A DNA stretch of 33,874 bases, taken from assembly GCA_963712115.1 (NCBI GenBank), contig CAVQGX010000029.1, positions 1 to 33,874 of the forward strand. Reading direction: 5' to 3'. The DNA comes from an uncultured delta proteobacterium (GTDB lineage Bacteria; Desulfobacterota; Syntrophobacteria; BM002). Each line of letters starts with the position of its first letter. Within the stretch, counting starts at the first letter, position 1. Under the pieces are notes generated by a model. It was not told the origin of the DNA. It saw only the letters and a list, made by a program, of their open reading frames with translations, and ran no database searches. Position numbers and translations under genes: made by a program. Shown here piece after piece: positions 19,144-33,438 of the stretch.

Positions 19144-19345
19144 AATGTTCCCTCTGTGGTTATCTAGCGCGGATGTTTCATGAATTGTTGTCGCGAGACC
19201 GTGAAGATGGACGTGCCACCGGGCAACCACAGGGTGTTGGATCCGAGGCGTACCTAAACGGTACGTCGCAGGGTTCGACACCCGAGGACGCCCGGAAGGA
19301 TGGCCATATTCGCGGTCGCAGCAGATTATTCATGAAACATCCGCG

Positions 19346-19711: not shown

Positions 19712-21744
19712 CTTTGTTCCCTTTGCCTCTCGACTCGAACCGGCAGTGTGAAAGAGAAAGTCGAACCTTTGCCCAAGGTCGATTCAACCCAAATGCGGCC
19801 CCCGTGCATTTCGACAATCCTTTTGGCAATGGAAAGCCCGAGGCCGGTTCCGCCCTTTTTCCGAGTGCTGGAAGCATCCACCTGATGGAACTCCTCAAAG
19901 ATCCTTTGCTGATCTCCCTCCGAGAGTCCGGGACCTGTGTCAGACACGGAGACCACAAAAGTATCGTTGGAAGCTGTGGCCTCAACCTCTACTTCCCCCG
20001 CCTCGGTGAATTTGATCGCGTTTCCCACAAGATTCATAAGCACCTGAGATATACGCTGTTCGTCGCCCTTACCGCAATCCACCTCTGGAGATACTGTAAC
20101 CTTCAATTCGAGATTTTTCTCCGCAGCCAGGGACTCGACCGCAGTAACCACTGTCTGAACGACTTCTTTCATGGAATAGTCAGCGAGAGAAAGGGTAAGC
20201 TGACCCGCCTCGATCTTGGAGAGGTCTAAAACGTCGTTGATCAAGCTCAGGAGATGGCGCCCATTTTGCTCCACTCGTTCCAAGACTTCTTGAATCTGCT
20301 CGGGCACATTGCCGTAGATCTTGTCGAGGATCAGCTCCGTGTAGCCCAAGATAGCGTTGAGGGGTGTTCTGAGTTCGTGGCTCATGTTGGCGAGGAACTC
20401 GGACTTGTGCTTGCTGGCACTCGCCAGCTCCTGTCCCTTTTCCTCGATTTCCCGGAAAAGCCTCGCATTCTGGATTGCCAGGGCTGACTGAGTGGCGAAA
20501 TTTTGCAGCAGGTCCACCGTTTCCTTGGCAAACTGCCCGGGCTCTCTGCGCCGAACCACAAGCCCACCAATGAGCCTGTCTTCGCGAAGCATTGGAACGG
20601 CGAGCAATGCTCGGAGTCCATCCCGCTCGATGATCTGGCGGAGTGGGTAATTTGGTTCTTCTAGGATGTCCGGAATTTGCACCGCTTCACGTTTATCCCC
20701 CGCCCGACCCAGGGCAGTCTCACCCAAGTGGACCGGAGACTGTCGTATCGCCTCGATCAGTTCTTTACTCATCCGGTGTGTTGCCCGGAGCTCGAACTGC
20801 TCGTTTGTCTCATCGAACTCATATATTGCCCCGGACTCCGTCTCTGAAAGCTCTACAGCATGGGCAACTATGGTGGCGAGAACTTTCTGGAGATCCAGGG
20901 TGGAGCTCACCGCCTGGCTGACTTCCCCCAGGCCTTGCAGTTCCTCCACCGACCGAGCCAGCTCACGGGTGCGCACCTCAACCTTCTCCTCCAGAGTTCG
21001 GCTGTACTCCTCCAGTTTCTCCTTGCTCGCGCTCAGTTCTCCAAATAAATTCTTGATCGAATCTCGCATGACATTGAGATCCTTCGCCAGGCTTCCGATC
21101 TCATCATTACTAGTCGTATCAATGAAGGTATCTAAATCTCCTTGAGCAATAGACGTGGCCGAGATTTGCAGTTCTGACAAAGGGCGAGAAATATAGCGTC
21201 TTGTAATGCGAATGGTTGTTACTGAAATGCCTATAATTATGAAAAGCGTTAAGTTAACAATTACACTTATATTTAAAATGAGTTGTTTTTTTATTATCTC
21301 ACGCGACATGACCAGTTGTATTGTACCGACTTTCTGTCCTTGGTAAATAATATCAGATGTTTTGGCGATGAAGTTTTGAGAGGATTCAAAATATGCAAAA
21401 TCTTTTTCTTGAAATTTATCACGCTTTTTTTCAGTAATGACCAGATTTCCCCACAAAACTTTAGCATATACGATGGATTTATCTAAAAATAATGATTTAA
21501 CAAAATCTTTTACAACATCGTGGTCAATATTCCAGAGTGGTATGGGCAAACTTATCTCGGCGAGTTTCAAAGAGTTGTTCAACCTTTCTTCTAATTCACC
21601 TTCCGTCTTGGAAACATTGAAAAATATGGCGAAGGCGGCAAATGCCACCAACATCAAGGTCACTACGCCAATCAAGGCATAACTGAAACGACGGCTGATG
21701 CTCCTGAATTTTAGAGTAGAAGGGGAACCGTTCTGCATGGACAC
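19708..21744 (-). CDS. Membrane sensor histidine kinase (periplasmic domain-HAMP-GAF-HisKA-HATPase)
   Basis: Two TM helices, HAMP (DEIG.LA...N.M), GAF, H-box [25 protein letters not shown] and GGTGLGL. Confidence 0.92.
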
Positions 21745-21792
21745 AATTCTATTGCGCTCGCCACGCCTTGGCGAAGTAGTGGTAGGTTTGTT

Positions 21793-22563
21793 CTAAAGTT
21801 TTTCCTCTATTTCTGGAAATGGATCATCCTCTAATTTAGCATTCCATTTCTTGCGAATTTGCATGATTGTTCCGTCAGCTAACATTTCATCAAAGGCACC
21901 TCTCCACTTTTCTACAATCGAATCCGAGGTTTTTTTCGAAAAAGCAATGTCAAGATTAATTTCCCTGAGATGGTAGACCTCCTCTATTTCGTTGTAATCA
22001 ACCCCGGCCAACTCGCAGACAGTTCTCAATCCCGGTATTTTGTATGTCCACAAGTCTATCCGCCCTAGAACTAGCTTTTTGGCATTTAATTGTTCGTCAG
22101 AAACAGGTTCAAGGTTGGTAAATCCCAGGCTTTCGAGCAAGCGCTCTCTTGTATCATCTCGAAGTGTCCCAATGCTTTTTACTTTCTTAGCATCTTCCAG
22201 ACTGTTAATTTTTATTCCTGAACCCTTTTTGGCCACAAGAATATCTCTTTTCGTTGCTAAAGGGCCAATCCATTTAAATTGATCATGGCGCACTTCAGTA
22301 TGAGTCATACCAAACAATACAACATTTTCTTCTTCCAAGGACATTTTGTAGGCTCTTGCCCAGGGGTAAACTTTGATCTCCTCATTAGACCCCACCCTTC
22401 TCTGAATTTCTTTGACTATTTCAACTGATGGACCAACCAATACTCCGTTTTCTACATAATTCAAGGGAGGCATATTTTCAGTCAAAACAGTTAGCTCCTG
22501 CGACAGTGCAGGGTTAACTGAAAATAAAAAAACTGAGGTTATCATTACAAATAGCTTTTTCAT
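21793..22563 (-). CDS. Family 3 periplasmic solute-binding protein with no adjacent transporter
   Basis: Signal peptide, TEN.PPLNY, PWARA, R...FKWIGP, GRIDLW and DGT...IRKKW motifs. Confidence 0.85.
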   Translation of the reverse strand: MKKLFVMITSVFLFSVNPALSQELTVLTENMPPLNYVENGVLVGPSVEIVKEIQRRVGSNEEIKVYPWARAYKMSLEEENVVLFGMTHTEVRHDQFKWIGPLATKRDILVAKKGSGIKINSLEDAKKVKSIGTLRDDTRERLLESLGFTNLEPVSDEQLNAKKLVLGRIDLWTYKIPGLRTVCELAGVDYNEIEEVYHLREINLDIAFSKKTSDSIVEKWRGAFDEMLADGTIMQIRKKWNAKLEDDPFPEIEEKL

Positions 22564-22672
22564 TATAAAGCCCCCTTTATTGGATCCGCATTTTATTCCT
22601 ACAATTTTTAGATATCCGCGCTCAGTGTCTTCTTTTGAAAATGCGGTGGAGCAGGAAATTTCGACTATTTTA

Positions 22673-22702
22673 AGGTTAATGCAACCATATATTTCATGTC
22701 AA
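22673..22702 (-). promoter_or_regulatory. Putative sigma70 promoter of the SBP-kinase operon
   Basis: TTGACA (22702-22697)-N18-TAACCT (22678-22673). Confidence 0.5.
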
Positions 22703-22842
22703 CGAGAAAGCATGCAGCGAAACTCCACTTGCGAAACAGGGCATGCATCACTATATACTATGTGTCGCAATAAATCAGGCGTGGTCTGCCGGTTAATGAT
22801 AAGCGGTTCTAACAATAAGACGGACGTGGGAGAAGTTCAGCA

Positions 22843-23832
22843 ATGGCTGGCAACAAAGGCAAAATACTAGTAACAGGGGCCACTGGTTTTATCGGCTATG
22901 AAGTTGCAAAACAATTGTCTCAGAAAGGCTACAAGCCCAGGCTCATGGTGAGAAGACCTCTTCGCGGTTTCCTGTTGAAATCCCTGGACGCCGAGCTAAT
23001 GCAAGGTGATCTGGGGCAACCCAAGAGTCTGGAACGTATGCTCAAGTCCGCTGATACGGTTATTCATCTAGGCGCTCGGGCCACCTTCGAGCCTTACAAA
23101 GCACTGCGTCCTTCAATAGTTGAAGGATCAATTAATCTTATGCGCGCTGCAATAGAGGCGGGCGTAAAAACCTTTGTCTATGGAGGTAGCCTTTTGGTAT
23201 ATGGCGAGCAGGCAAAGCCGATCACCCAGCAAACGGCTGCGGCACCAAATATTGGTTACAGTAGAGCTAAGCTGGAAGCAGAAACTATCTTGCTCAAAAT
23301 GGCAGCAGATGGTGGTATCCGTTTCACTTCAATGCGTTTACCACACACTTACGGGGTGAACAGCCTCCTTTTTAGCCAGATGCGGCGGGGAACCATCGTA
23401 TTTCCCGGAAAAGGAAACAATCTGTTTGCTCACCTCCACGTGGTCGATGCAGCTAGGGCATTAATCAAAGCCGCTGAGGATGGAAAGTCTGGTATATCAG
23501 TAATAGCGGATAATGCATCGTGCACCTGGAACGATCTTTTTACCGTCACCCAGCATTATTACCCCAGGCTCCGTGTTATTCGGGTTCCCAAATGGATAGC
23601 CCTCTTTGTGACCAGCGCACTGGATACGCTCTACCGCTTCACACCCTACTGGAACAGATTTTCTACAGGTGCAGTAAAAAGCTGGACCTCAAACTTACCG
23701 GTAGAACCAAATACTCTCCAGGATACTCTGGCAATGGAGCCGATTTACCCAACTATAGAGCAAGGTATACCCGCTGCCCTTGACGATTGTATCTCTTATT
23801 ATTGGCTTCATTCACTAGAAGACAATGATTAA
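22843..23832 (+). CDS. NAD-dependent epimerase/dehydratase (extended SDR)
   Basis: TGATGFIG Rossmann motif and YSRAK (YxxxK). Confidence 0.88.
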   Translation: MAGNKGKILVTGATGFIGYEVAKQLSQKGYKPRLMVRRPLRGFLLKSLDAELMQGDLGQPKSLERMLKSADTVIHLGARATFEPYKALRPSIVEGSINLMRAAIEAGVKTFVYGGSLLVYGEQAKPITQQTAAAPNIGYSRAKLEAETILLKMAADGGIRFTSMRLPHTYGVNSLLFSQMRRGTIVFPGKGNNLFAHLHVVDAARALIKAAEDGKSGISVIADNASCTWNDLFTVTQHYYPRLRVIRVPKWIALFVTSALDTLYRFTPYWNRFSTGAVKSWTSNLPVEPNTLQDTLAMEPIYPTIEQGIPAALDDCISYYWLHSLEDND

Positions 23833-23956
23833 TCGGCAAAATAAACAAGCAGAACCACCACTGCTTATTTCACGGGCCTTTCTCGGCAGGATGGCAGCGC
23901 CTCAATAAAAATTTACATCGGATCTTCGGTTCAATCAGGTCCACGTAGGGAACCTC

Positions 23957-24409
23957 ATGCTAATCAGAGAAGAGATTGAGATCGCAGCCCCCATGCCCTT
24001 TGTCTGGGCTGTCTTTTCCGCTCTGGAAGAATGGGACGACTGGAATACCGCCTGTCAAAGCTGTCACCTCATCGAAGGCGAGAAAATGGCGGCGGGAGCA
24101 TGTTTCTCCTTCGTGGTTAGGCCATTTACTTTGCCAATCAAAGTAAAGCCGCGCATCACCGAGTGCGAACCGGGACAGAAGGTCGTCTGGGAGGGAGAAC
24201 GTCTCGGGATTCACGCAGTCCACACCTGGACCTTTCGAGAGACTAATGGCAGGGTGACACTCATAAGCCACGAAGAGTTCAGCGGACCCCTTATCTGGCT
24301 GGCGAGATTAATCCTGGTTCCCAGACGTCTTCACAGTCTCACCAAGCAGCTCCTTGCCTCCGTCAAGCAAGAGGCTGAGGCCCGTTACCAAGCCCAAAAG
24401 GTATCCTGA
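23957..24409 (+). CDS. SRPBCC/polyketide cyclase family protein
   Basis: I.I.AP...VW......W..WN pattern; 150 aa. Confidence 0.8.
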   Translation: MLIREEIEIAAPMPFVWAVFSALEEWDDWNTACQSCHLIEGEKMAAGACFSFVVRPFTLPIKVKPRITECEPGQKVVWEGERLGIHAVHTWTFRETNGRVTLISHEEFSGPLIWLARLILVPRRLHSLTKQLLASVKQEAEARYQAQKVS

Positions 24410-24445
24410 CCTAGATGGTTTGGATAATAATCCACCGGAGCCGGA

Positions 24446-24979
24446 TTATTTTAACTCTTGTTTGCTCGGCGTATAGGTGGGAGCATTGGGGGGTGATTTG
24501 CCTTTGAGGAACTCCCGGTAATACTGATATGTCAAGGGGCGGCCATCTCTAACCACCTCGGTATTGACAGCATTGCCAACGAAAATGGTATGGGTCCCGA
24601 GGTCTATTTGATCAAAAACCTCTGCCTCCAGCAAGGAGACGGCGTGCTCGGTCACAAGAGGGCAGCCAGTCACACCCTCCTTAAATTGCACCTCTGAAAA
24701 TTTATTTATATCCCTTCCTGACCTGAAACCAAAGGGACCCAAGAACTTCATAGGAGTGGACTCATCCAAAACAGTAACGCCAAATACCCTGCTCCTGGAG
24801 ATGAAGTCGTGGGTCAAATTTTTCTTGTTGATTATTACCGCCACTCTGGGTGGATCGGAAGTAACCTGGATGACGGTGTTTACAATCTGACCATTCATTT
24901 GGTCTCCATGGCGAGAGGTCACTATATACAAGCCATAACTCAAGTCGCCAAACACCTTGCGATCTATATCGGGACTCAT
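24446..24979 (-). CDS. Flavin reductase-like FMN-binding protein
   Basis: SYGLYIVT, NG...NT..QVT..P, FGFRSGRD..KF and GTHTIF.G motifs. Confidence 0.88.
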   Translation of the reverse strand: MSPDIDRKVFGDLSYGLYIVTSRHGDQMNGQIVNTVIQVTSDPPRVAVIINKKNLTHDFISRSRVFGVTVLDESTPMKFLGPFGFRSGRDINKFSEVQFKEGVTGCPLVTEHAVSLLEAEVFDQIDLGTHTIFVGNAVNTEVVRDGRPLTYQYYREFLKGKSPPNAPTYTPSKQELK

Positions 24980-25003
24980 ACAATCACTCCTTCCTCTGAT
25001 CCC

Positions 25004-25186
25004 TTAGTCAACAACCTTGATATCCCCGGCGTATCTGCCCACCGTAGCATCATCAACGCAGCTGTTCAGCTCTTCTTCACTGGCATCCTTGGGGTCCATC
25101 AAAGAATCTAATGGACACAGCCACTCATTTCCAGCCGCATCCTTCACTCGTACGAAAGGTTTTCCCCGAACTGATTCGTCTGACAT
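25004..25186 (-). CDS. Small acidic hypothetical protein (60 aa, two Cys)
   Basis: RBS AAGGAG, protein-like composition (VRVKDAAGNEWLCP); 24 nt upstream of the flavin reductase gene on the same strand. Confidence 0.65.
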   Translation of the reverse strand: MSDESVRGKPFVRVKDAAGNEWLCPLDSLMDPKDASEEELNSCVDDATVGRYAGDIKVVD

Positions 25187-25290
25187 TTTTCTCTCCTTTC
25201 TCTGAATTGCTAGCTATAAATTAATCTGTAAAAAGGTTTTTTTGCTTTTCCAGATATCTTGGATAAAAGTGCCTATGAAAGTAACCTAAC

Positions 25291-25462
25291 TATACAGAGC
25301 GTCAAAAATAAATGCGTATTCTCGTCGCGGACTGGTCACATGTAGGGGTGGGCTTTATGCCCACCCGATGAGCAGATTCCAACACTTTTCCGGGGGGAGT
25401 AAATCCCGCCCCTACGGCAAAATTTGAACAAAGATGCGCAATAATTTATGACGCTATATATA
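25291..25462. mobile_element. MITE-like element with 29-bp imperfect terminal IRs enclosing a REP doublet
   Basis: 25291-25319 matches the reverse complement of 25434-25462 at 23/29 positions. Confidence 0.6.
25342..25415. repeat. GTAG-family REP doublet (REPIN-like)
   Basis: GTAG-GGGTGGGC-TTTAT-GCCCACCC (25342-25366) and inverted GTAG-GGGCGGGA-TTTAC-TCCCCCC (25415-25392). Confidence 0.8.
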
Positions 25463-25699
25463 AATACTTAACTTCGAATCGCAAAATTTTCCAATTAGGT
25501 TAGGTCTAAGCTAAGTCACGCGATCTCTGCTGTCAACACAACTCATCAGCTCAGCCAATTTTACTTTCCTTTTCGTAACCCGAGCTGGCGGAATGGATCT
25601 GATGATTTAGCCAAGTAATCTTTCCAAAATCAACAAGTTCGTTGCAAGCTCCTCTCTGAGTTCTTAGATTAGGTTTCACCCTTAAAGAGGAACTTTATT

Positions 25700-27235
25700 A
25701 TGTCAAGAATAGCTATTCACTACTTTTTTGCTGTCACAGTCTTGACTCTCTACGGCGGGCAGGTCTGACCCTTCATGGAAACACTACCCCCCGTGCTTTT
25801 GGGGGTAAGCCTTCTCATTCCCTTCATGGCGGCGCTGGCTCTGCGCAGGCCCCTTGAGAACCGCTTCGTAGTCTCCCAACCCCGGATTGTCCAGCCCAGA
25901 AAGCAGTTTTACCTTGATTTTACCCTGTGCCTGGCAGCTGGCTCTGCGGTAGCAGTTTACAACTCCCTAGCTCATGGCTTTCCTGCTCCCAGTGGTATCA
26001 GCCTATTGTTGGGTTGTACCGTCGTCGGCTTCTTCACTGGTATGGATATGGCCTTAGCCAGAGAGCGCTCACTTATACACGCTGCCCTTGCTGAAGACAA
26101 GGTACTACCGCCTCCAAAACGGCTTTATTCCATGACTCGTAAATTCTCCCTGGTTGCCCTAACCGCAACCTTATTCGTTTCTCTAATCCTCGGGCTGGTG
26201 ATTGCCAGAGATGTAGTCTGGCTTGCCGAGATCGAACAGAGCGGTATGTCGGTCATCCAGGCCCAATTGTCTGTCATGCGTGAAGTCCTCTTCATTATGG
26301 CCGTGCTCCTGGTAGCAATCGTAAATTTGATCGTTTCCTATTCCAAAAATCTTAAGCTCCTATTTCAGAACGAAACCACCGTCCTGGAGAGGGTTAGCCA
26401 GGGAGACCTTTCCAAATTGGTGCCGGTGGCTACCAACGACGAATTTGGCTTTATCGCCGGACACACCAATACTATGATTGAAGGGCTGAGGCATCGCACT
26501 CAGTTGATAACCGCCCTCAAGTTGGCCGAGGAGGTGCAGCAGAACCTCTTGCCGAGTGAGCCCCCCTCACTCCCCGGATTTGACATTGCCGGCACAAGTA
26601 AGTATTGCGACGAAACTGGCGGTGACTATTACGATTACTTCGAGTTCTCAAACGGCCACTTGAGAATTGTAGTGGCCGACGCCTCCGAGCACGGTGTGGG
26701 CGCAGCCATGCTCATGACCACGGTTAGGGCCCTTCTGCGGCAGAGGGTGACCATGGGGGGCGACATCGCTCGAATTGTCTCAGACGTCAACCTAGAGCTT
26801 GCCAGAGATGTTGGGGGTAGCGGACGGTTCATGACCATGTTTTTCCTGGAAATCGAACCTGAAAGTAACACATTGAATTGGGTTCGCGCCGGTCACGAAC
26901 CGGCAGTCCTTTATAACTCTAGAGAGGATAGTTTCCTCGAACTTACCGGGGAAGGTATGGCCCTCGGGGTAGTCGAGCACTTGGAATTCCAGAAGTATAC
27001 CCACCAGGGCTGGACTCCGGGTAGCATAATTGTGGTGGGCACCGACGGCATCCGAGAAGCCCAAAATGAGGACGGAGAAATGTTCGGCTCAAATCGATTC
27101 CGAGAGGCCATACGTAGTCATGCCACCGAGTCTGCCGAAGAGATCCAGAACCGTATTATAGAGGAGCTCCAAATCTTTCAGGGAGAGGCGCCTCAAGAAG
27201 ACGACATCACCCTGGTTGTGGTGAAACTTTTATAG
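25700..27235 (+). CDS. Multi-TM HAMP-PP2C (SpoIIE/RsbU-like) phosphatase; candidate selenoprotein with in-frame UGA at 25766-25768 (511 aa if read through)
   Basis: RBS AAAGAGG, ATG 25700, MSRIAIHYFFAVTVLTLYGGQV-TGA-PF, in frame with the 25775 ORF; HAMP (NDEFG) and PP2C motifs GGDYYD, ADASEHG, TDGI.E, DDIT. The PP2C call is firm; the Sec read-through is inferred. Confidence 0.8.
25785..25807 (+). promoter_or_regulatory. Candidate bacterial SECIS hairpin
   Basis: TACCCCC-CGTGCTTTT-GGGGGTA; stem starts 16 nt after the UGA and the loop GU lies 24 nt after it. Confidence 0.55.
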
Positions 27236-27251
27236 AGGTTGGAGGTAACAA

Positions 27252-27662
27252 GTGAAAAGGGTTCAAGTGGGAGTTGGCGTATTCGTCAAACGGAACGAGA
27301 AGATTCTGGTGGGTAAAAGAAAAGGCTCTCACGGCGCAGGCACCTGGGCTTTGCCCGGCGGTCATCTGGAACCCGGGGAGTCATTCGAAACATGTTGTAA
27401 GAGAGAGGTCCTGGAAGAGACGGGACTCATTATCAATAACATAAGCCCGGTGGTCTTTACCAACGATGTTTTTCACGAAGAGGGGTTCCATTACATTACC
27501 CTCTTTTTCAAGGGAGAATACGAGTCTGGAGAGGCAATTGTTGCAGAGCCCCGGCACTGCGAGGAGTGGCGGTGGGTCTCCCTGGACCATATTCCCCAGC
27601 CTATTTTCTTACCACTTAGCAACGCCCTGAAAGAGATCGAGAGAAAACATTTGGTTTTGTAG
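27252..27662 (+). CDS. NUDIX hydrolase (NUDT15/MutT-like)
   Basis: Nudix box GGHLEPGESFETCCKREVLEETGL; RKGSHG and EP..C..W.W motifs. Confidence 0.9.
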   Translation: MKRVQVGVGVFVKRNEKILVGKRKGSHGAGTWALPGGHLEPGESFETCCKREVLEETGLIINNISPVVFTNDVFHEEGFHYITLFFKGEYESGEAIVAEPRHCEEWRWVSLDHIPQPIFLPLSNALKEIERKHLVL

Positions 27663-27748
27663 TTAGGGTAGTGAGATTTAGGGGGGAAAAACACTACTAT
27701 CGAAATGAAAGTGTTTTTTCTACGAGTGGGTGGCGGATTGGAGGGAGA

Positions 27749-28585
27749 TCAGGGAGAGGTGATGAACTGAGTCTCGCTGATATGAAATTCATGGACGAAA
27801 TCATTGTTCTCCACCTCATCCGACACACCTATGAGAAATGGAACCATGAGCCCTTGAACACTCCTGAGGTCACGGTAATGCAAGGTTCCCTTGTATGACT
27901 CAAACAGTGATCGGAGGGTAAAGTCAATGTAATCTACATAGTAAGTTTGCTGATTTATGTAGATTAAATACTGATTGTGTTCAGGCGAAGCTGAAACCCC
28001 GCCTGAACTTGCGAAAAGGACATAGTAAGCCTCATTTTCGATATTTTTCTCGCCTGCATAGAGTAATACTGGACTTTCATACAATTTGTAGGGCCATTGG
28101 AAATAGTCCCTCAAAGGTTCCAAATAAAGCCTGATTTTCGAACTGTCAGCGAATTCCCTTTCTTGGTTAATAGCTCTGTAGGTCTTTTCATTTTCAACGC
28201 CAATATACTGTCCCTTTCGCTTACCGTTTAAAAAAAGGTAGTTAATTTCGTCCCCTGCTGTTGAAAACAAAACTTCGAACTTCTGTTCTTGCTCAGTTAC
28301 GGGAGTAAAAAATCTCACCAAACTCGAATGCCATAAATCAGTGCCCTTTAGGCGGACAGAGTTAAAAGATCTGTATGTGCTATATCCACCTCTTACATTC
28401 AAAGATTTCTCGAAAACTGTTATAGCCTTCTCTCGCAAGTCTGGTTGAGTGTCTGGATTTTTTACTTTGTCCGTAGACAGATCAGCAGTGCTGCAGCCGA
28501 TAGCGAGAATCATGGAAGTAAATACAAGCAAGAATCTGCCGCACCGTTTCTTGAAAATTTTTCCCGAAGATCGAATCTTATTCAT
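27749..28585 (-). CDS. Putative lipoprotein of unknown function (likely ATG 28585)
   Basis: Basic N-terminus, hydrophobic stretch and lipobox-like AIGC; C-terminal Y.D.R.V.GL.VPF resembles LolA-like fold proteins. Confidence 0.6.
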   Translation of the reverse strand: MNKIRSSGKIFKKRCGRFLLVFTSMILAIGCSTADLSTDKVKNPDTQPDLREKAITVFEKSLNVRGGYSTYRSFNSVRLKGTDLWHSSLVRFFTPVTEQEQKFEVLFSTAGDEINYLFLNGKRKGQYIGVENEKTYRAINQEREFADSSKIRLYLEPLRDYFQWPYKLYESPVLLYAGEKNIENEAYYVLFASSGGVSASPEHNQYLIYINQQTYYVDYIDFTLRSLFESYKGTLHYRDLRSVQGLMVPFLIGVSDEVENNDFVHEFHISETQFITSP

Positions 28586-28812
28586 GGGTGAAAGAATCTG
28601 CCCCTCCTTTGTTTCATTGGGCCTGAGATAAGCTCTGCTGAAAGCATTGTCAAGGATCTGATGCACAATTGCTAATTACAGTGTTTTCATTTATTAAAGA
28701 GAAGCTGATGCTAGCGCTTGAGTATGGGTTGACTGCATGGGAGATAAGCTTACCTTTAGAAGTGAAGACCGACTTGTCGGCTACTTAAAAATTAAATTAA
28801 CCCGGATATTTC

Positions 28813-29274
28813 ATGGCAAAAACGCACCGGTTCAAAACTTCTCTGACTCTACCTTTGGGTATTGACGAGGCTTTTAGCTTTTTTGTTGATGCCTCCAATC
28901 TCGAGAAGATTACGCCACCTGAATTGTGTTTTCACATTCTGACGCCACAGCCCATTGAAATCACTGAAGGTACAGAGATCGATTACCGGCTGCGTCTGTA
29001 TGGTGTGCCGCTTAACTGGCGCTCTAGGATAACCAACTGGTCTCCCCCACACCGCTTTGTTGACGAGCAGATTCAGGGTCCCTACAGGCTCTGGGTTCAC
29101 CTGCATCGATTTTACCAGCAGAACGGTAGTACAAAGATTGTAGACGAGGTCCGGTACCAGCTTCCCCTTTGGCCGTTAGGGGAGCTTGCTTATCCTCTTA
29201 TTGCCGCCCAGCTCAGTAGGATTTTTCGCTTCAGAAAACAAGCCATAGGGGAGGCCATTCACAAACAGTTGTAA
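28813..29274 (+). CDS. SRPBCC family protein
   Basis: F.FF....NL..ITPP, W...I....PP..FVD.Q..GPY..W.H.H.F and D.V.Y motifs. Confidence 0.85.
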
Positions 29275-29311
29275 AAATTCTGGCTGGATTATCTAGAAAG
29301 GGTGAGAACAA

Positions 29312-29752
29312 ATGAAAAGGAGATATTTTTTTATGCTTGCCTTTACCTTTGTTTTGACGGCGTGCTCCACTGATCAAAGCATAAAAACCGGAGCAACTGG
29401 CGACAGGCTGTCAGCCTGTCCCAAGTCTCCCAACTGCGTCTCCTCTTTGAGCGAGGATAAATCTCAACAGGTGGCACCCTTGACATACAGTGCTCCTCTT
29501 GATGAGGCGAGAGAAAAGCTCATCTCTGTGATCAACTCAATGAAGCGCTCTGAGATTGTCACCGCTGAGAACAACTACCTGCATGCAACCTTTAAATCTT
29601 TTCTTTTCCGCTTTGTGGATGATGTGGAATTTTCTTTTGATGACGAAAGAAAGATTATAGATGTGAGGTCGGCATCGAGGACGGGATATTCTGATTTTGG
29701 CGTAAACCGCAGTAGGGTAGAGGAAATAAGAAGAAGGTTTATGGCTCCGTAA
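29312..29752 (+). CDS. DUF1499 family lipoprotein
   Basis: LTAC lipobox; CPKSPNCVSS, FVDDVEF and RSASR.G.SD.GVNR.R motifs. Confidence 0.88.
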   Translation: MKRRYFFMLAFTFVLTACSTDQSIKTGATGDRLSACPKSPNCVSSLSEDKSQQVAPLTYSAPLDEAREKLISVINSMKRSEIVTAENNYLHATFKSFLFRFVDDVEFSFDDERKIIDVRSASRTGYSDFGVNRSRVEEIRRRFMAP

Positions 29753-29801
29753 ATGACCAAAACGACCTTATATTCCAGTTCCAGTTGGACCCGCATTTTG
29801 C

Positions 29802-30077
29802 CTAGCCGGCCGGTGGGGCCCAGAAAGCTATTTCCGGTGCTTTGCCTGATACAAGCCAGGGAAACCGCCTCTCAAAATCTTCCAACCTTCTTTTGTAGTG
29901 ATGCACCCTAACCCGCATGTCGCCATCATCGGGATCAGCTCGGAGGGCGGCCTCAGCATCACGCAAAAGTACCCTGAGCTCAAGGTACTCCCTCTCCACG
30001 TCTCGGACTTCCTTGCGAAACTTGTGAATACGCTCTAGAAGCCATTCAGGATCACTATAATCTATGGGAACGGTCAT
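29802..30077 (-). CDS. Hypothetical helical/coiled-coil protein (91 aa)
   Basis: RBS AGGAG and a charged amphipathic helical pattern. Confidence 0.6.
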   Translation of the reverse strand: MTVPIDYSDPEWLLERIHKFRKEVRDVEREYLELRVLLRDAEAALRADPDDGDMRVRVHHYKRRLEDFERRFPWLVSGKAPEIAFWAPPAG

Positions 30078-30392
30078 AACCTTCTCCTGACTGAATCACC
30101 TGCCCACCTGCTGGGGCGGTTGGCTAACTGCAATTTTGACTTTGTCGCAAACCAAGATTACTTTTACCCAGTTTATTACATCTGGTCATGTAGGAGCAAC
30201 CTTTGGTTGCAATGACAAAATGACAGATGAAAGTGCCCGGTAATCTCACTTTTAAAGCTCTCTTGAATGGTCAGGTGGAGCTCAAAAGTACTTGTGCTTG
30301 GCGAAAAGTTGCCACTCTGGTTTTCTCGGCGTAAAGTGATTACTATGATTTTCAAGGGTGAAATTATCAGGTTTGTTTGAGGTGGAGGGAGA

Positions 30393-31307
30393 ATGGCTGA
30401 GAATCTCTTGTTTGCTGAAGATCTATGCAAAACCTTTAATGGCTTGAAGGCAGTGGATGGTATATCTCTGCGCATGACCAGGGGAGAGTGCTTCGGCATC
30501 CTCGGTCCCAACGGCGCCGGAAAAACAACCACTGTTCGCATGATCTACGGGTTCAGCCCGGTCAGTTCCGGAACTCTCAAGGTCTTTGGCATGGACATTC
30601 AGAAGCACGCCCGGCTTATTAAGGCAAAAAGCGGTGTGTGCCAGCAAGAGAACAATTTGGATCCAGACCTCACCGTTTTTCAAAATTTGGTCACTTTTGC
30701 CAGCTATTTCGACATACCGCGAGCTACAGCCAGGCAGCGAGCCTCCGAATTGCTGCGTTTCATGCGCTTGGAGCATAAACAGCACGCCAAAATATTGGAG
30801 CTCTCCGGTGGTATGCAGCGGCGACTGGTTATCGCCCGCGCCCTGATAAACAAACCTGAACTCCTTATTCTTGATGAGCCTACCACCGGTCTAGATCCTC
30901 AATCCCGACATCAGGTGTGGGGGCGGCTGGCAGAGCTAAAGGCTCAGGGACTGGGTATTCTCCTCACCACTCATTATATGGAAGAGGCGGCACACCTTTG
31001 CGATAGATTAGTAATCATGGATCATGGGCGTATCTTAGTTGAGGGTGGACCACTGGATCTGATCCACCAAAATGTCGGAGCCAATGTAATCGAGGTTGAG
31101 TCACCTAGTGAATCACTCCTGAATTTTGTCAAAGAGAGCGATCTGGACCACGAGGAGCTTTCCCATAGGTTGCTCATCTACACCAGGGATGGTGAGACTC
31201 TCTTTCGCAAGATCTCTGAGGGTTTCTGCGATCGGGGTTGCAGCCTGAGAATGGCAACCCTTGAGGACGTCTTTCTAAAGCTGACGGGAAGGGAATTGAG
31301 AGATTAA
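30393..31307 (+). CDS. ABC exporter ATP-binding protein (NodI/DrrA-like)
   Basis: [26 protein letters not shown] and TTHYMEEA motifs. Confidence 0.92.
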   Translation: MAENLLFAEDLCKTFNGLKAVDGISLRMTRGECFGILGPNGAGKTTTVRMIYGFSPVSSGTLKVFGMDIQKHARLIKAKSGVCQQENNLDPDLTVFQNLVTFASYFDIPRATARQRASELLRFMRLEHKQHAKILELSGGMQRRLVIARALINKPELLILDEPTTGLDPQSRHQVWGRLAELKAQGLGILLTTHYMEEAAHLCDRLVIMDHGRILVEGGPLDLIHQNVGANVIEVESPSESLLNFVKESDLDHEELSHRLLIYTRDGETLFRKISEGFCDRGCSLRMATLEDVFLKLTGRELRD

Positions 31308-32107
31308 TGGCTGTTAGGGAAATGAACTGGCTACCACAGATATCACCAAGATTTCGCCGCATACTGCAGCGAAACTCCCAGGTGCTTCGACGTACTTGGA
31401 AGGTAAACTTTTTGCCGCCAATCCTGGAGCCTGTCCTGTATTTGCTCGCTTTTGGAGCCGGATTGGGGCTACTGGTTGGGGAGATGTCTTACCGAGGGGA
31501 ACCTGTGAGCTACGTTGCCTACATCGCACCAGCACTCATTGCAATAAACATTATGTATAACGCCTTTTTTGAAAATACTTTCGCTTCATACGTGCGAATG
31601 TACTACCAGAAGACTTACGATGCCATCATGGCTACGCCACTCAACTTGGATGAGATCATCACCGGTGAAATTGTCTGGGGTGCAGTAAAATCTCTAATTG
31701 CAACGATGCTCATGGTGGCGGTAATAAGTTTTTTTAGACTCCTCGTCTACCCCCATGCCCTGTTGATCGTACCCCTTGCTTTTCTTGGAGGATTGGCTTT
31801 TGGCTCAGTGGCCATGTGCTTTACCGCCTTGGTGCCCCAAATTGAGGTATTCAACTTTCCCATCTTTCTTTTCATCACGCCCATGTTCCTATTTAGTGGT
31901 ACCTTCTTCCCCCTGGAGACCCTACCTCGCTGGGCTCAAGTTCTGGCCCAAGTTCTTCCCCTCACTCACCTTGTCGCCCTAGTGCGGGCTTTGGCCATGG
32001 GCAAACTGGAGGGTCAGCTCTTGCTGAGTCTTCTCTACTTGGTTCTCTTCTCGGCTGTCACTTTTATCCTGGCGATTGCGCTCATGAGAAGGCGGCTGAT
32101 TATTTAG
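31307..32107 (+). CDS. ABC-2 type permease (NodJ-like)
   Basis: Six TM helices, EP.LYL..FG.GLG and PM.LFSG.FFP motifs; TAATG translational coupling. Confidence 0.9.
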   Translation: MAVREMNWLPQISPRFRRILQRNSQVLRRTWKVNFLPPILEPVLYLLAFGAGLGLLVGEMSYRGEPVSYVAYIAPALIAINIMYNAFFENTFASYVRMYYQKTYDAIMATPLNLDEIITGEIVWGAVKSLIATMLMVAVISFFRLLVYPHALLIVPLAFLGGLAFGSVAMCFTALVPQIEVFNFPIFLFITPMFLFSGTFFPLETLPRWAQVLAQVLPLTHLVALVRALAMGKLEGQLLLSLLYLVLFSAVTFILAIALMRRRLII

Positions 32108-32286
32108 TGTCGGGCAAGAAAACCCCAGTAAAGGTTTAGTCTCCCGAACCCCCTGTTTTTACTTCATTTGACTATAATTAATCTGATGGTTACCATCTTT
32201 ACATGCTTGGTAGTTAGATTAGCCGATTGGTGAGATAAGGAGGAGAATAGAGGTAACCTCTCATTATCTTGCCCTCCAACGAGATG

Positions 32287-32327
32287 TTACTAAGTAAAGA
32301 ATCCAGTCCCGGGGGACCTGACTTTGA
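32287..32327 (+). repeat. Dispersed repeat, copy B (no insert)
   Basis: TTACTAAGTAAAGAATCCAGTCCCGGGGGACCTGACTTTGA, homologous to 8171-8099. Confidence 0.7.
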
Positions 32328-32482
32328 TTGAGAAGGAATCAGGAGTCAAATCCCGTGGGCCAAGAGCATAGAGCGAAAGATTTTGAATTATCCCTATGCC
32401 CCATGCGCTATGCTATCTGACCTGGCCCCACGGACCAATTTTCCGAGATCCTAACCAAGAGATAGTTCGGTGTAGCCCACAA

Positions 32483-33091
32483 ATGATAAAAGCCATAATC
32501 TTTGACTTCGGCCGGGTCATTTCAGCGCAAAAGCCCGCCTCATTGTTTAGCAGTTACGAGAATGACCTGGGACTGGAGCCAGGCACGATCAACTCAATAA
32601 TGTTCAATAGTAAAGCCTGGGAGGACGCCCTTATTGGTAGCAAAACGGTGGAAGAATTCTGGCAGGAGATGGGACCGCATCTTAATCTTAACACCCCAAC
32701 TGAAATAGATGCTTTCCGCCGCCGTTATCATTCAGATGAGGCAATTAATCACTCAGTAGTGGAGCTGGTGCAAAGGTTACACGGCCGCCGCAAACTGGCG
32801 GTTCTATCGAATTCACCGCCTGGCCTTTCCCAATGGCTTGCTGACTGGAACTTGCTCGACCTTTTCGACACGGTTTTCTGCTCTGGTGATGAGGGCGTGG
32901 TCAAGCCCGAGCCGACTGCATTCGAAATCACACTTCAGCGATTGGAAGTTAGACCCGAGGAAGCGGTGTTCATCGACGATACTATGGAACACGTGGAGGC
33001 ATCCCGCAAGATGGGACTCCAAGCGATTCTTTTCACCACCGCCGAAGCGCTCGAGGAAGAGCTGGCTGATTTGTTGCGCGAAGATTTCTAA
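32483..33091 (+). CDS. HAD-superfamily phosphatase (YihX-like; ATG 32483)
   Basis: IIFDFGRV motif I, LSN, KP and FIDD motifs. Confidence 0.88.
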   Translation: MIKAIIFDFGRVISAQKPASLFSSYENDLGLEPGTINSIMFNSKAWEDALIGSKTVEEFWQEMGPHLNLNTPTEIDAFRRRYHSDEAINHSVVELVQRLHGRRKLAVLSNSPPGLSQWLADWNLLDLFDTVFCSGDEGVVKPEPTAFEITLQRLEVRPEEAVFIDDTMEHVEASRKMGLQAILFTTAEALEEELADLLREDF

Positions 33092-33106
33092 TCGCAACCA
33101 CGATAA

Positions 33107-33420
33107 AGAATTCAGGAGTCAGAATTCAGAATCCAGTTAGCATAGAGCATAGAGCATGGGGCATAGAGCAAGAAGCTAGAACTCAGAGTCTAGATTTCAG
33201 TGTTCAGGTTTCAGTTTTTGTCTTTCTCTTCCCTGACACCTGACACCCGAAACCTGACACCCTGAGATTTGTTGCTTGTGATTTGGAATTGCGGATTTCT
33301 AATTTCGAAATTATTGAACTGTGATTTGAATGCTCTTTTTGATTGCAACGATTTGAACGGCTTGAACGATTTGAACGGTTTCTAAACACTTTAGACATTT
33401 TAGTTCATTTTAGGCATTTG
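33107..33420. repeat. Stack of different short-period (7-10 nt) tandem repeats
   Basis: AGAATTC/AGGAGTC, (AGCATAG)n, (CCTGACA)n, GATTTG units, (TTGAACGAT/GGC)n and (CATTTTAG..)n in succession. Confidence 0.75.
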
Positions 33421-33438
33421 AAATGATAAGGGAGAGAA

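What the first reader, a model, noticed from the sequence alone, without database searches (positions are those of the whole stretch)
25700..27235. Candidate selenocysteine-containing membrane sensor phosphatase (YGGQV-U-PF, HAMP-PP2C)
Seen: the ORF track starts at ATG 25775, which has no obvious RBS. An upstream in-frame ATG at 25700 has AAAGAGG and encodes a TM-like helix (IAIHYFFAVTVLTLYGG). A single TGA at codon 23 interrupts it, followed by a hairpin (25785-25807) with a GU-containing loop about 24 nt downstream. Known: this matches bacterial SECIS geometry, and Desulfobacterota are selenoprotein-rich. From memory and unverified, related N-terminal membrane domains have Cys here (YGGxVCPF). 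Inference: Sec at the end of TM1 acts as a redox or metal/heme-ligand sensing residue controlling a PP2C output. Most known bacterial selenoproteins are oxidoreductases, so a Sec signalling receptor would be unusual. It would also make synthesis of the phosphatase selenium-dependent.
Basis: partly seen in the sequence, partly recalled or inferred. Interest (0 to 1): 0.88.

Follow-up and report, generated by a model that had tools for sequence, protein, structure and literature searches.

The report
Selenocysteine in a membrane sensor phosphatase
The stop-like TGA near the start of this gene is almost certainly read as selenocysteine, which puts a selenium atom at the one nearly invariant residue of a membrane sensor domain and shows that databases annotate the gene 25 residues too short.

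Summary
ATG 25700, TGA 25766-25768 and the hairpin 25785-25807 are as described. Read through, the protein is MASE10 (6 TM) + HAMP-like linker + PP2C, and the Pfam MASE10 profile is matched from its first position only if the 25 upstream codons are included. All 34 distinct TGA-form loci found carry the TGA in the same column (YGGQV-U-PF). In an unselected set of 100 MASE10 proteins that cover this column, 98 have Cys, making it the most conserved column of the domain. Codons upstream of the TGA evolve like coding sequence (pN/pS 0.37). Synonymous change is suppressed threefold only in the hairpin. Four different hairpin sequences sit at the same distance in different clades; 30 of 34 TGA forms, 0 of 7 Cys forms and 2.4% of random TGAs meet a bSECIS-type test. 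SelA, SelB and a Sec-type SelD are present; tRNA-Sec was found only in relatives. Sec forms also occur with cyclase outputs. The family is not in a 2026 catalogue of 119 selenoprotein families. What the Sec senses is inferred, not shown.

The parts
25685..25691 (+). Shine-Dalgarno-like AAAGAGG, 8 nt before the true start
   Evidence: In one search, most of the 21 homologous genes show a purine-rich AAGG/GAGG-type stretch about 6-12 nt before the equivalent ATG.
25700..27235 (+). Full coding sequence of the selenoprotein: 511 codons including Sec23, then stop TAG 27233-27235. The product is MASE10 + HAMP-like linker + PP2C (SpoIIE-type) phosphatase.
   Evidence: The AlphaFold2 model has mean pLDDT 94.0 and pTM 0.77. 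An ATG lies 21-22 codons before the TGA in 20 of 21 homologues.
25766..25768 (+). In-frame UGA read as selenocysteine (residue 23, motif YGGQV-U-PF). It follows directly after TM helix 1, on the periplasmic side.
   Evidence: The TGA is in the same column in all 34 distinct TGA-form loci. Cys occupies this column in 98 of 100 unselected MASE10 proteins. The helix spans residues 2-22 in both models.
25785..25807 (+). bSECIS-like hairpin: stem 25785-25791 with 25801-25807, loop 25792-25800 (CGUGCUUUU), 23 nt after the UGA. It encodes L-P-P-V-x-L-G-V at the start of TM2.
   Evidence: 97.5% of pair cells are paired across 23 sequences. One pair covaries (AU 10, GU 7, GC 6, none unpaired). Fourfold-degenerate sites are frozen only here, and pS is 0.23 here against about 0.68 elsewhere.
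25775..25777 (+). ATG used as the start by ORF callers and databases. It gives a 486-aa product that lacks TM1 and the Sec, and is most likely a mis-annotation.
   Evidence: most of the 120 best database homologues are 486 or 480 aa. In A2 this codon is ATG in 12 of 23 and Leu in the other 11, so there is no conserved restart codon.
25718..26293 (+). MASE10 integral-membrane sensor domain (residues 7-198; six long helices)
   Evidence: Pfam PF20970 scores 137.2 bits against a cut-off of 27 and matches profile positions 1-186 of 186. Helices are 2-22, 31-58, 62/65-92, 96-131, 145-181 and 185-214+.
26378..26491 (+). HAMP-like linker (residues 227-264)
   Evidence: Pfam PF00672 scores 21.2 bits, E 3.8e-4, which is below the 25-bit cut-off. 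The model shows helix, connector, helix at this place.
26651..27229 (+). PP2C / SpoIIE-type Ser/Thr phosphatase domain (residues 318-510)
   Evidence: Pfam PF07228 scores 152.6 bits. The best Foldseek match is the SiaA PP2C domain 6k4e_B: E 6.2e-12, TM 0.85 by target length, rmsd 2.7 over 250 columns.

Best explanation
The gene runs from ATG 25700 to TAG 27235. Its 23rd codon, UGA 25766-25768, is decoded as selenocysteine by the SelB/tRNA-Sec system, guided by the hairpin at 25785-25807 inside the coding sequence.

The product is a 511-residue inner-membrane receptor. It has a six-helix MASE10 sensor domain, a HAMP-like linker and a cytoplasmic PP2C phosphatase. Sec23 replaces the one nearly invariant Cys of MASE10 (motif YGGxV-C/U-PF). 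Because the HAMP and PP2C parts must be cytoplasmic after six helices, Sec23 lies at the periplasmic end of TM1.

Supported by comparative evidence, not shown biochemically: the UGA is a Sec codon, and the annotated 486-aa form is a truncation.

Inferred: the selenol is the signal-perceiving group. My preferred mechanism, at about 45% given that Sec is real, is a reversible redox or electrophile switch. Oxidation to a selenenic acid, a Se-S or Se-Se bond, or an adduct at the membrane surface would shift TM1/TM2. The shift would pass through TM6 and the HAMP-like linker and change PP2C activity. The phosphatase would then act on a phospho-STAS partner-switch protein, as RsbU and SiaA do.

A further consequence is that the receptor can only be made when selenium is available.
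For: 1. Domain completeness. The Pfam MASE10 profile is matched from position 1 to 186 only with the upstream codons included (residues 7-198, 137 bits).

2. Conserved UGA. All 19 full-length matches in 15 of the 22 genomes of the order have exactly one TGA, at 57-100% identity. These include a 68% paralogue in this genome. The TGA is in the same column in 20 of 20 loci. It is also there in forms at 25-47% identity from other families and in Desulfovibrionaceae.

3. Sec/Cys pair. 98 of 100 unselected MASE10 representatives covering the column have Cys, and it is the most conserved column of the domain. Cys forms were also read directly from DNA in 7 loci.

4. The region upstream of the UGA is coding. 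Codons 2-22 give pS 0.62, pN 0.23 and ratio 0.37, against 0.38 for the rest of MASE10. An ATG is conserved in 20 of 21 genes.

5. RNA constraint.
- Only 2 of 48 invariant fourfold-degenerate codons have a frozen third base, and both are in the hairpin.
- pS in codons 30-37 is 0.23.
- RNAalifold finds the same hairpin.
- 97.5% of pair cells are paired, against 40-71% when the partner is slid. One pair covaries and is never unpaired.

6. Four unrelated hairpin sequences lie 17-23 nt after the UGA in different clades. 30 of 34 TGA forms meet the bSECIS-type criteria, against 0 of 7 Cys forms and 2.4% of 3000 random TGAs. The criteria are those given in PMC13188914, section 5. SelD of the same genome has a comparable hairpin (7 bp, spacing 20, -10.0 kcal/mol).

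7. Machinery. SelA scores 518 bits, SelB 395 bits (over its cut-off), and SelD carries its own in-frame TGA. SelA is present in 19 of 22 genomes of the order. tRNA-Sec is present in 3 of 4 single-contig relatives.

8. TGA is an ordinary stop in this genome: it ends 341 of 1127 long open frames.

9. Output. The PP2C fold matches SiaA, RssB, RsbU and SpoIIE. An RsbW-like kinase and a STAS gene lie near the paralogue on C30 and near the Oceanidesulfovibrio TGA form L084.
Against: - There is no direct evidence of selenium in the protein.
- tRNA-Sec was not found in this assembly. The best RF01852 hits score 45.8 bits or less and are tRNA-Ser, and ARAGORN finds no SeC. The assembly is 94.4% complete and also lacks tRNA-Asp and tRNA-Phe.
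- The 71-nt stretch does not fold better than its shuffles (z = +0.79).
- The stem is mostly invariant, so only one pair gives covariation. The shuffle control for 'pairs with a change on both sides' was reached in 75 of 500 shuffles.
- The stem also encodes a conserved peptide (LPPVxLG), so part of its conservation could be at the protein level.
- The homologues are related to each other, so the counts are not independent.
- Four of 34 TGA forms fail my strict hairpin test: L036, and the three cyclase forms, whose loop is 11 nt.
- The HAMP match is below Pfam's cut-off.
- No partner-switch genes lie next to the window's own copy.
- No ligand of any MASE10 protein is known (passages of 10.1101/2021.11.05.467447), so the sensing chemistry is conjecture.
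Confidence: 0.87

Rival explanations
1. Sec is real, but it is a ligand-binding residue rather than a redox switch. Two selenolates, one per subunit of a dimer, or Sec together with neighbouring conserved residues, would bind a soft metal (Cu(I), Zn, Cd, Hg) or another thiophilic ligand at the membrane surface. Binding would drive the HAMP/PP2C output. This rivals only the mechanistic half of the best explanation.
For: - There is a single conserved Cys/Sec per chain. No second conserved Cys could act as a resolving partner: column 106 is Cys in only 43 of 149 and column 77 in 15 of 144.
- The motif is C/U followed by Pro at the end of a helix.
- Several membrane selenoproteins in Table 1 of PMC13188914 are metal transporters: a MerT-like protein, a cation ATPase and the SO_0444 Cu/Zn efflux family.
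- Other conserved residues lie at the same membrane face: F94, P95, S98, D171 and W174.
Against: No His, Met or second Cys is conserved beside it. In sulfidic sediments free soft metals are scarce (general knowledge).
Confidence: 0.25
2. The UGA is a true stop. A conserved 22-residue membrane peptide is made on its own, and the phosphatase is translated separately from ATG 25775 (or from GTG at codon 32 in homologues), as annotated in the databases.
For: Most of the 120 best database homologues are called as 486 or 480 aa. ATG 25775 lies 7 nt after the TGA. GTG at codon 32 is nearly invariant in the main group.
Against: - Codon 26 is Leu in 11 of 23 main-group genes, and the cyclase and Desulfovibrionaceae forms have no GTG at the later position.
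- In Cys forms the same 22 residues are joined to the rest as TM1 of one domain.
- The Pfam profile needs them.
- A five-helix remainder would invert the topology relative to the Cys forms.
- This reading does not explain why TGA rather than TAA or TAG is kept in 34 of 34 loci, nor why a hairpin follows the TGA only in the TGA forms.
Confidence: 0.04
3. The UGA is read through, but not as Sec. It would be read by near-cognate tRNA (Trp or Cys) or another SelB-independent route, with the hairpin merely slowing termination.
For: UGA followed by C is a weak termination context (recalled, not tested). tRNA-Sec is not in this assembly.
Against: - The aligned residue in homologues is Cys in 98 of 100, which is the classic partner of Sec.
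- Every genome searched that has a TGA form, except the 83%-complete G010, has SelA.
- The hairpins fit the bSECIS spacing and loop rules and resemble that of SelD in the same genome.
Confidence: 0.04
4. The TGA is a sequencing or assembly error, or a nonsense mutation in a decaying gene.
For: The source is a metagenome-type assembly with 5.99% contamination. One relative (L046) has a frameshift further on.
Against: The same TGA is present in 34 distinct loci from many assemblies. Contigs of four independent runs were laid on the stretch, and no difference at 25766-25768 is listed (only 40 of 328 differences were shown). Purifying selection acts on both sides of the TGA.
Confidence: 0.01

Closest known systems
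Cys-type MASE10-HAMP signalling proteins, e.g. Vibrio cholerae VC1295 (HD-GYP c-di-GMP phosphodiesterase). The domain was defined in 10.1101/2021.11.05.467447 (passages read).
   Same: The six-helix domain is the same (Pfam PF20970 over its cut-off). The motif YGGxV-C-PF at the end of TM1 is shared. It is followed by a HAMP-type linker. Outputs are PP2C, class III cyclase or HD-GYP.
   Different: Here the conserved Cys is encoded by UGA with a SECIS-like hairpin. That paper does not mention selenocysteine or stop codons (0 occurrences). No signal is known for any member.
SiaA of Pseudomonas aeruginosa and RsbU/SpoIIE-type PP2C partner-switch phosphatases
   Same: The PP2C fold is shared (6k4e_B E 6.2e-12; also RssB, Rv1364c RsbU and SpoIIE). 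NCBIfam's SiaA model hits the PP2C part weakly (56.5 bits against a cut-off of 700). The layout is a membrane anchor plus a HAMP-type linker (SiaA architecture recalled). STAS and RsbW-like genes lie near a paralogue.
   Different: The sensor domain is different, and this protein is not an equivalog of SiaA (far below the cut-off). None of these proteins has selenocysteine.
Known or predicted integral-membrane bacterial selenoproteins in Table 1 of PMC13188914: MerT-like mercuric transport protein, YeeE/YedE, SO_0444 Cu/Zn efflux transporter and the permease SaoP
   Same: Sec sits in or at the edge of a transmembrane segment. It is decoded through a hairpin inside the coding sequence, and Cys homologues exist.
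   Different: Those proteins are transporters. None of the 119 listed families is a signal-transduction receptor. The words phosphatase, sensor, HAMP, cyclase, MASE and transmembrane do not occur in the main text (Table 1 read).
Prx(Sec)-PP2C fusion proteins from the Global Ocean Sampling data (PMC2398784, passage read)
   Same: This is a selenoprotein that carries a PP2C-type phosphatase domain, proposed to link redox chemistry to phosphatase signalling.
   Different: There the Sec lies in a soluble peroxiredoxin domain, and the PP2C is a distant subgroup with its own conserved Cys. There is no membrane sensor, no MASE10 and no HAMP.
Thiol-based redox sensor kinases such as ArcB and RegB (recalled from general knowledge, no call)
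   Same: They may work alike: a Cys near or in the membrane is oxidised or cross-linked and this changes the output of a dimeric receptor.
   Different: The domains are unrelated. Their reactive Cys residues are cytoplasmic, and no Sec forms are known to me.

Membership tests
Bacterial selenoprotein (SelB/bSECIS-dependent UGA decoding) | The in-frame UGA is conserved at the same position in orthologues | tested here: met
   All 19 full-length places in the order have one TGA. It is in the same column in 20 of 20 loci, and in 34 distinct loci overall.
Bacterial selenoprotein (SelB/bSECIS-dependent UGA decoding) | Homologues carry Cys aligned with the UGA | tested here: met
   98 of 100 unselected representatives have Cys. 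Seven Cys-form loci were read from DNA.
Bacterial selenoprotein (SelB/bSECIS-dependent UGA decoding) | Protein-coding conservation on both sides of the UGA | tested here: met
   pN/pS is 0.37 upstream, 0.16 for codons 24-29 and 0.38 for the rest of MASE10. The Pfam profile spans the UGA.
Bacterial selenoprotein (SelB/bSECIS-dependent UGA decoding) | A hairpin 16-37 nt after the UGA, with a 3-9 nt loop that has G in its first two positions, a stem of at least 4 bp and MFE <= -7.5 (model quoted in PMC13188914, section 5) | tested here: met
   The window hairpin has 7 bp, a 9-nt loop CGUG..., spacing 23 and -10.6 kcal/mol. 30 of 34 TGA forms meet the test, against 0 of 7 Cys forms.
Bacterial selenoprotein (SelB/bSECIS-dependent UGA decoding) | SelA, SelB and SelD are in the genome | tested here: met
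   All three score over their curated cut-offs, and SelD itself has one TGA (motif GKGG-U-ACK).
Bacterial selenoprotein (SelB/bSECIS-dependent UGA decoding) | tRNA-Sec (selC) is in the genome | tested here: inconclusive
   It was not found in this assembly, which is 94.4% complete and also lacks tRNA-Asp and tRNA-Phe. It was found at 75 bits, with anticodon tca, in relatives G003, G004 and G018, but not in G002.
Bacterial selenoprotein (SelB/bSECIS-dependent UGA decoding) | Selenium is physically present at the residue (75Se labelling or mass spectrometry) | not testable with these tools
   An experiment is needed.
MASE10 (Pfam PF20970) | Profile match over the gathering score, covering the domain | tested here: met
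   137.2 bits against a cut-off of 27; residues 7-198 match profile positions 1-186 of 186.
MASE10 (Pfam PF20970) | Six transmembrane helices | tested here: met
   Both AlphaFold2 models show six long helices (pLDDT 94.0 and 94.7). Topology follows from the charge of the loops (sequence).
MASE10 (Pfam PF20970) | Followed by a HAMP domain (stated for all classes in 10.1101/2021.11.05.467447) | tested here: inconclusive
   PF00672 scores 21.2 bits, below the 25-bit cut-off. The model shows a helix-connector-helix at the expected place. The Cys form L060 reaches 30.2 bits.
PP2C / SpoIIE-type phosphatase (PF07228) | Profile match and PP2C fold | tested here: met
   152.6 bits. Foldseek matches 6k4e_B, 3f79, 3ke6 and 5ucg at E 6e-12 to 1e-10.
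PP2C / SpoIIE-type phosphatase (PF07228) | Metal-binding Asp residues of the active site are intact | not tested
   By eye only. Stretches ADASEHG, GTDGI and QEDD are present, but I made no residue-by-residue alignment to a solved enzyme.
Partner-switch phosphatase (RsbU/SiaA-like system) | STAS-domain substrate and RsbW-like kinase are encoded with it | tested here: inconclusive
   None lie beside the window's gene. They are present about 3.4 kb from the paralogue on C30 and about 0.8 kb from the TGA form L084.

The most novel reading that the evidence does not exclude
MASE10 is a family of receptors that perceive their signal through a single chalcogen atom at the outer face of the membrane. 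The forms in sulfate reducers and syntrophs would be the first selenoprotein signal receptors, with one Se atom per chain acting as the redox or electrophile (or soft-metal) sensor that drives phosphatase or cyclase output. Selenium would then be used for sensing rather than catalysis. A whole branch of partner-switch and cyclic-nucleotide signalling in these anaerobes would be made only when selenium is available.
Probability: 0.4. Interest if true: 0.85.

Novelty: new variant of a known kind. Interest (0 to 1): 0.72.

Why it matters
- Annotation. The gene and well over a hundred database homologues are annotated about 25-31 residues too short, without TM1 and without the key residue. Thirty of the 150 best cluster representatives start just after the column.
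- Selenoproteome. This adds a family that is absent from a May 2026 catalogue of 119 prokaryotic selenoprotein families and from NCBIfam release 20. Unlike most of those families it is a transmembrane signalling receptor, not an oxidoreductase or transporter.
- MASE10 function. No signal is known for this domain. By the usual logic of Sec/Cys pairs (recalled), the exchange marks Cys23 as chemically active. This gives a direct experiment for tractable Cys forms such as V. cholerae VC1295.
- Evolution. The same column switched between Sec and Cys at least twice (most parsimoniously five times) on a tree of 131 domains. Four different hairpins and two outputs are involved, showing how readily a SECIS can arise inside codons for a transmembrane helix.

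Tried and rejected
- Rfam at gathering thresholds over the whole window gave 0 matches. I know of no general bacterial SECIS model in Rfam (recalled), so this says little.
- Folding 25760-25830 against shuffles gave z = +0.79. I replaced this unspecific test with a hairpin-specific control.
- tRNA-Sec in the own assembly was not found by RF01852, ARAGORN, or blastn with the relatives' tRNA-Sec. The flank of selC in relative G004 maps inside contig C45, so the contig does not end there. No conclusion on absence can be drawn.
- The search for related loci with alignment A3 returned an error because no stretch was conserved enough. I repeated it with the single protein.
Whether the two Sec residues of a dimer approach each other therefore stays open.
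- Fold search of the MASE10-only model against 48,161 solved chains gave a best Z of 7.3 (rmsd 4.9, 152 aligned). The hits are unrelated helical bundles, below the level the tool itself calls meaningful for helical proteins. No solved relative was recognised, and this is no proof of a new fold.
- The lipoprotein signal peptide idea (TM1 cleaved before the Cys/Sec) was rejected. Residues -3 to -1 are G-Q-V, unlike a lipobox (lipobox consensus recalled), and TM1 packs in the bundle at pLDDT 93-95.
- Global reassignment of TGA was rejected, because TGA ends 30% of long open frames.
- Neighbour conservation: the NUDIX gene downstream is kept only in five close relatives, so no functional link is claimed.
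- Sigma-70-type promoter scan of 25100-27800 found 0 sites.
- Reads: all runs were available as contigs only. An RNA-library contig (X15, record 9) spans 25507-25821 with 11 differences. This is compatible with transcription across the ATG, UGA and hairpin but does not prove it.
- Earlier findings of this scan: three look-ups found nothing.
- Literature searches that found nothing relevant: selenoprotein + SpoIIE (only the Prx-PP2C fusion); selenocysteine + HAMP domain; selenoprotein + PP2C + transmembrane + bacterial; SECIS + adenylate cyclase + selenoprotein + sensor; MASE10 (two papers, neither on selenium); VC1295 (no sensing ligand reported in the passages read).
Full report
**The observation.** AAAGAGG lies at 25685-25691, ATG at 25700 and TGA at 25766-25768 (codon 23). 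ATG 25775 is the start that a plain ORF list gives (486 aa), and the stop TAG is at 27233-27235. Read through, the product has 511 residues and begins MSRIAIHYFFAVTVLTLYGGQV-U-PFMETLPPV. The hairpin has a 7-bp stem (25785-25791 with 25801-25807) and a 9-nt loop CGUGCUUUU, 23 nt after the UGA. Its energy is -10.6 to -11.6 kcal/mol.

**What the protein is.** Pfam finds MASE10 (PF20970, 137 bits, residues 7-198 matching profile 1-186 of 186). It finds a HAMP match below the cut-off (21.2 against 25 bits, residues 227-264) and SpoIIE/PP2C (152.6 bits, residues 318-510). The first 19 positions of the MASE10 profile are matched by residues upstream of and across the TGA. AlphaFold2 with 75 aligned sequences gives mean pLDDT 94.0 and pTM 0.77. 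It shows six long helices (2-22, 31-58, 65-92, 96-132, 145-181, 185-233), a helix-connector-helix and a PP2C domain. The sensor part alone gives pLDDT 94.7 and pTM 0.90. Because HAMP and PP2C are cytoplasmic after six helices, the N-terminus is inside. The loops rich in Arg and Lys (49-68, 121-147) are the cytoplasmic ones. Residue 23, directly after helix 1, therefore lies at the periplasmic face. The PP2C part matches SiaA (6k4e_B, E 6.2e-12), RssB, an RsbU domain and SpoIIE.

**The TGA is conserved.** Among the 120 best database homologues (62-93% identity), most are 486 or 480 aa long, meaning they are called from just after the TGA. I then searched the 22 genomes of the same order with stops read through. 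All 19 full-length matches (57-100% identity, in 15 genomes) contain exactly one TGA. So does a match cut by a contig end (G005). PP2C-only paralogues contain none. In 20 of 20 loci the TGA is in the same column, within YGGQV*PF (twice YGAQI*PF). One of these, L046, also has a frameshift further on. This genome itself has three such genes:
- the window's gene;
- a 98% copy on contig C3;
- a 68% paralogue on C30.

**Wider homologues and the Sec/Cys pair.** In a sample of 401 genomes of the phylum, 11 have MASE10, at 14 places. Ten places have one TGA and four have none. The four without TGA have Cys at that column. The TGA forms from other families are only 25-47% identical to the window's protein. 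Named records show the following:
- TGA forms occur in MAGs labelled Syntrophobacterales, Syntrophobacteria, Desulfobacteraceae, Desulfosarcinaceae, Oceanidesulfovibrio and Desulfovibrionaceae.
- Cys forms occur in Desulfobulbus, Maridesulfovibrio and a Desulfobacterales MAG.

An exhaustive phmmer search with the sensor part found 327 clusters at E <= 0.001. Of the best 150 representatives, 100 cover the column: 98 have Cys, one Asp and one Ser. The other 50 start downstream of it. Thirty of those begin at query residue 26-34, as expected for calls truncated at a TGA, but their DNA was not seen. The column is the most conserved of the whole domain. The only other columns with appreciable Cys are 106 (43 of 149) and 77 (15 of 144).

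**Both sides of the TGA are coding, and the hairpin is under RNA-level constraint.** I used 21 main-group genes. I left out L038 (partial), L043 (the 98% copy) and L046 (frameshifted).
- An ATG lies 21-22 codons before the TGA in 20 of 21 genes; L033 has ATA there.
- Pairwise distances give pS 0.62 and pN 0.23 for codons 2-22 (ratio 0.37). This is like the rest of MASE10 (0.38) and PP2C (0.34).
- Codons 30-37, which form the hairpin, have pS 0.23 against about 0.68 elsewhere.
- Of 48 columns with an invariant fourfold-degenerate amino acid, only two have an invariant third base. These are Pro31 (CCC) and Gly35 (GGG), both in the stem. The Pro codon right after the TGA shows all four bases.
- On 23 sequences the named helix is paired in 97.5% of cells, against 40-71% when the partner is slid.
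- One pair shows AU 10, GU 7, GC 6 and is never unpaired. The change to GC goes with a Val-to-Ala replacement on the 3' side.
- Three pairs never vary, and the shuffle controls are only moderately exceeded.
- RNAalifold predicts the same helix.

**Different clades, different hairpins, same place.** Four hairpin sequences occur after the UGA:
1. The main group has UACCCCC/GGGGGUA with loop CGUGnnnnU, at spacing 23.
2. The cyclase-type forms L061-L063 have AGGCCU/AGGCCU with an 11-nt loop that begins CGGG, at spacing 17.
3. L084 has GCUCUCC-GUG-GGAGAGC, at spacing 21.
4. L085 has GCUCCC-GGUCU-GGGAGC, at spacing 20.

My strict test requires at least 5 contiguous pairs, a loop of 3-9 nt with G in its first two positions, 16-37 nt from the UGA and E <= -7.5. 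It follows the model quoted in section 5 of PMC13188914. 30 of 34 distinct TGA forms pass and 0 of 7 Cys forms pass. Of 3000 random TGA triplets of this genome, 2.4% pass. The failures are L036 (-6.8 kcal/mol) and the three cyclase forms, because of their loop length. SelD of the same genome, a known selenoprotein family with its own TGA, has a like hairpin (7 bp, spacing 20, -10.0 kcal/mol).

**Machinery.** SelA (518 bits), SelB (395 bits, over its cut-off) and SelD (382 bits, one TGA) are present. SelA is in 19 of 22 genomes of the order; the three without it are 61-83% complete. tRNA-Sec was not found in this assembly. The assembly also lacks tRNA-Asp and tRNA-Phe and is 94.4% complete. Three of four single-contig relatives have tRNA-Sec at 75 bits with anticodon tca. 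TGA ends 341 of 1127 open frames of 400 codons or more, so it is a normal stop here.

**Outputs and partners.** Sec-type MASE10 is joined to PP2C (the window, L057, L059) and to class III cyclase domains (L061-L063). Cys forms in my sample have HD-GYP (L053, L055) or cyclase (L060) outputs. The Sec/Cys exchange therefore belongs to the sensor, whatever the output. On a tree of 131 sensor domains, built with the column masked, the Sec/Cys label needs five changes at the least. Well-supported branches force at least two (quick search, many weak branches). The window's gene has no partner-switch neighbours. The paralogue on C30 is divergent from a cluster that encodes an ABC transporter, a cNMP-binding protein, an RsbW-like kinase, a STAS protein and an FHA protein. 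The ABC gene is kept beside relatives of that paralogue. An RsbW-like and STAS pair lies near the Oceanidesulfovibrio TGA form.

**How it most likely works.** Supported by comparative evidence: UGA23 is a Sec codon, and the protein includes TM1. Inferred: Sec23 is the reactive, signal-perceiving group at the membrane surface. By the usual rule that Sec replaces catalytic, redox-active or metal-binding Cys (recalled), I favour a reversible redox or electrophile switch that acts through TM movements on HAMP and PP2C. Dephosphorylation of a STAS protein would be the output. Binding of a soft metal by the selenolate is the main alternative. No second conserved Cys exists, so any resolving partner would be the other subunit, a small molecule or none.

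**Comparison with what is known.** MASE10 was defined from VC1295. Its authors noted a conserved Cys in the periplasmic loops and said that no member has a known signal. That text does not mention selenocysteine. A May 2026 review lists 119 prokaryotic selenoprotein families. I read its Table 1 and searched its text. It contains no MASE10, HAMP, PP2C or cyclase receptor. NCBIfam release 20 has no model for the family. The nearest printed case is a Sec-peroxiredoxin fused to a distant PP2C in ocean metagenomes, which is a different arrangement. Five further literature searches found nothing. Supplementary tables of selenoproteome surveys could not be opened, so an earlier listing there cannot be excluded.

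**Verdict.** This is a real feature, correctly read by the first stage. It is a new selenoprotein family and a Sec variant of a known sensor domain. The evidence is comparative and strong for the recoding. It is indirect for the function.

Noticed in passing
G000 contig C3:23045-24577 and flanks (window 17883-33874 against C3 16919-31412): A second copy of this gene, 98% identical and with the same TGA, lies on another contig of the assembly. It sits in a syntenic stretch of about 14 kb at 93-98% identity. This is either a co-binned sister strain (contamination is 5.99%) or a recent segmental duplication.
   Followed up: partly
G000 contig C30:45343-46875 (locus L093 1341-2876, minus strand) and L093 3172-8097: A 68% paralogue, also with the TGA, is divergent from a cluster that encodes an 841-aa fused ABC transporter, a cNMP-binding protein, an RsbW-like kinase, a STAS protein and an FHA protein. 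The ABC gene is conserved next to relatives of this paralogue in about 15 loci.
   Followed up: partly
Loci L061, L062, L063 (other families of the phylum): These are Sec-type MASE10 domains fused to class III adenylate/guanylate cyclase domains. They have their own hairpin, AGGCCU-(11 nt)-AGGCCU, 17 nt after the UGA. They would be selenoprotein nucleotide cyclases.
   Followed up: partly
G000 contig C22:26789-27709: SelD of this genome is itself a selenoprotein (GKGG-U-ACK) with a 7-bp hairpin 20 nt after its UGA.
   Followed up: yes
Loci L086, L087, L089 (Cys forms; Desulfobulbus, Maridesulfovibrio, a Desulfobacterales MAG): The Cys forms encode LPVWE/K after the Cys. The same peptide's codons form the GCUCCC-GGUCU-GGGAGC hairpin in the TGA form L085. 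In the Cys forms only a weakened remnant pairs (for example UUCC-GGUUU-GGGA, -1.1 kcal/mol). This may be a relic of a former SECIS, or it may be the raw material for one.
   Followed up: no
Protein P0134 (232 aa): This is the single representative with Asp at the Sec/Cys column (YGSQVDKMMAALPPINLG). It still carries the LPPxNLG signature typical of TGA forms. It may be a frameshifted or miscalled TGA form; its DNA was not seen.
   Followed up: no
Locus L033 (G001:C321) and locus L046 (G017:C70): L033 has ATA where 20 other genes have the start ATG. L046 has the TGA, a second TGA and a frameshift near residue 61. These may be a decaying copy or assembly errors.
   Followed up: no
Window 19708-21744, minus strand: This is a 678-aa membrane histidine kinase. 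By eye it has HAMP-like, GAF-like and HisKA/HATPase stretches; its HATPase part gave a weak PF13581 hit. It lies next to a periplasmic substrate-binding-type protein at 21793-22563. It was not analysed.
   Followed up: no
Window 25205-25699: About 500 bases upstream of the gene have no ORF of 40 aa or more on the plus strand, no sigma-70-type promoter match and no Rfam match. An RNA-library contig reaches back to 25507. This may be a long leader or an unconventional promoter region.
   Followed up: no
Relative G002 (single contig, 87% by marker count): G002 has SelA, but no tRNA-Sec over the cut-off and no full-length MASE10-PP2C gene. It is the only single-contig relative lacking both.
   Followed up: no
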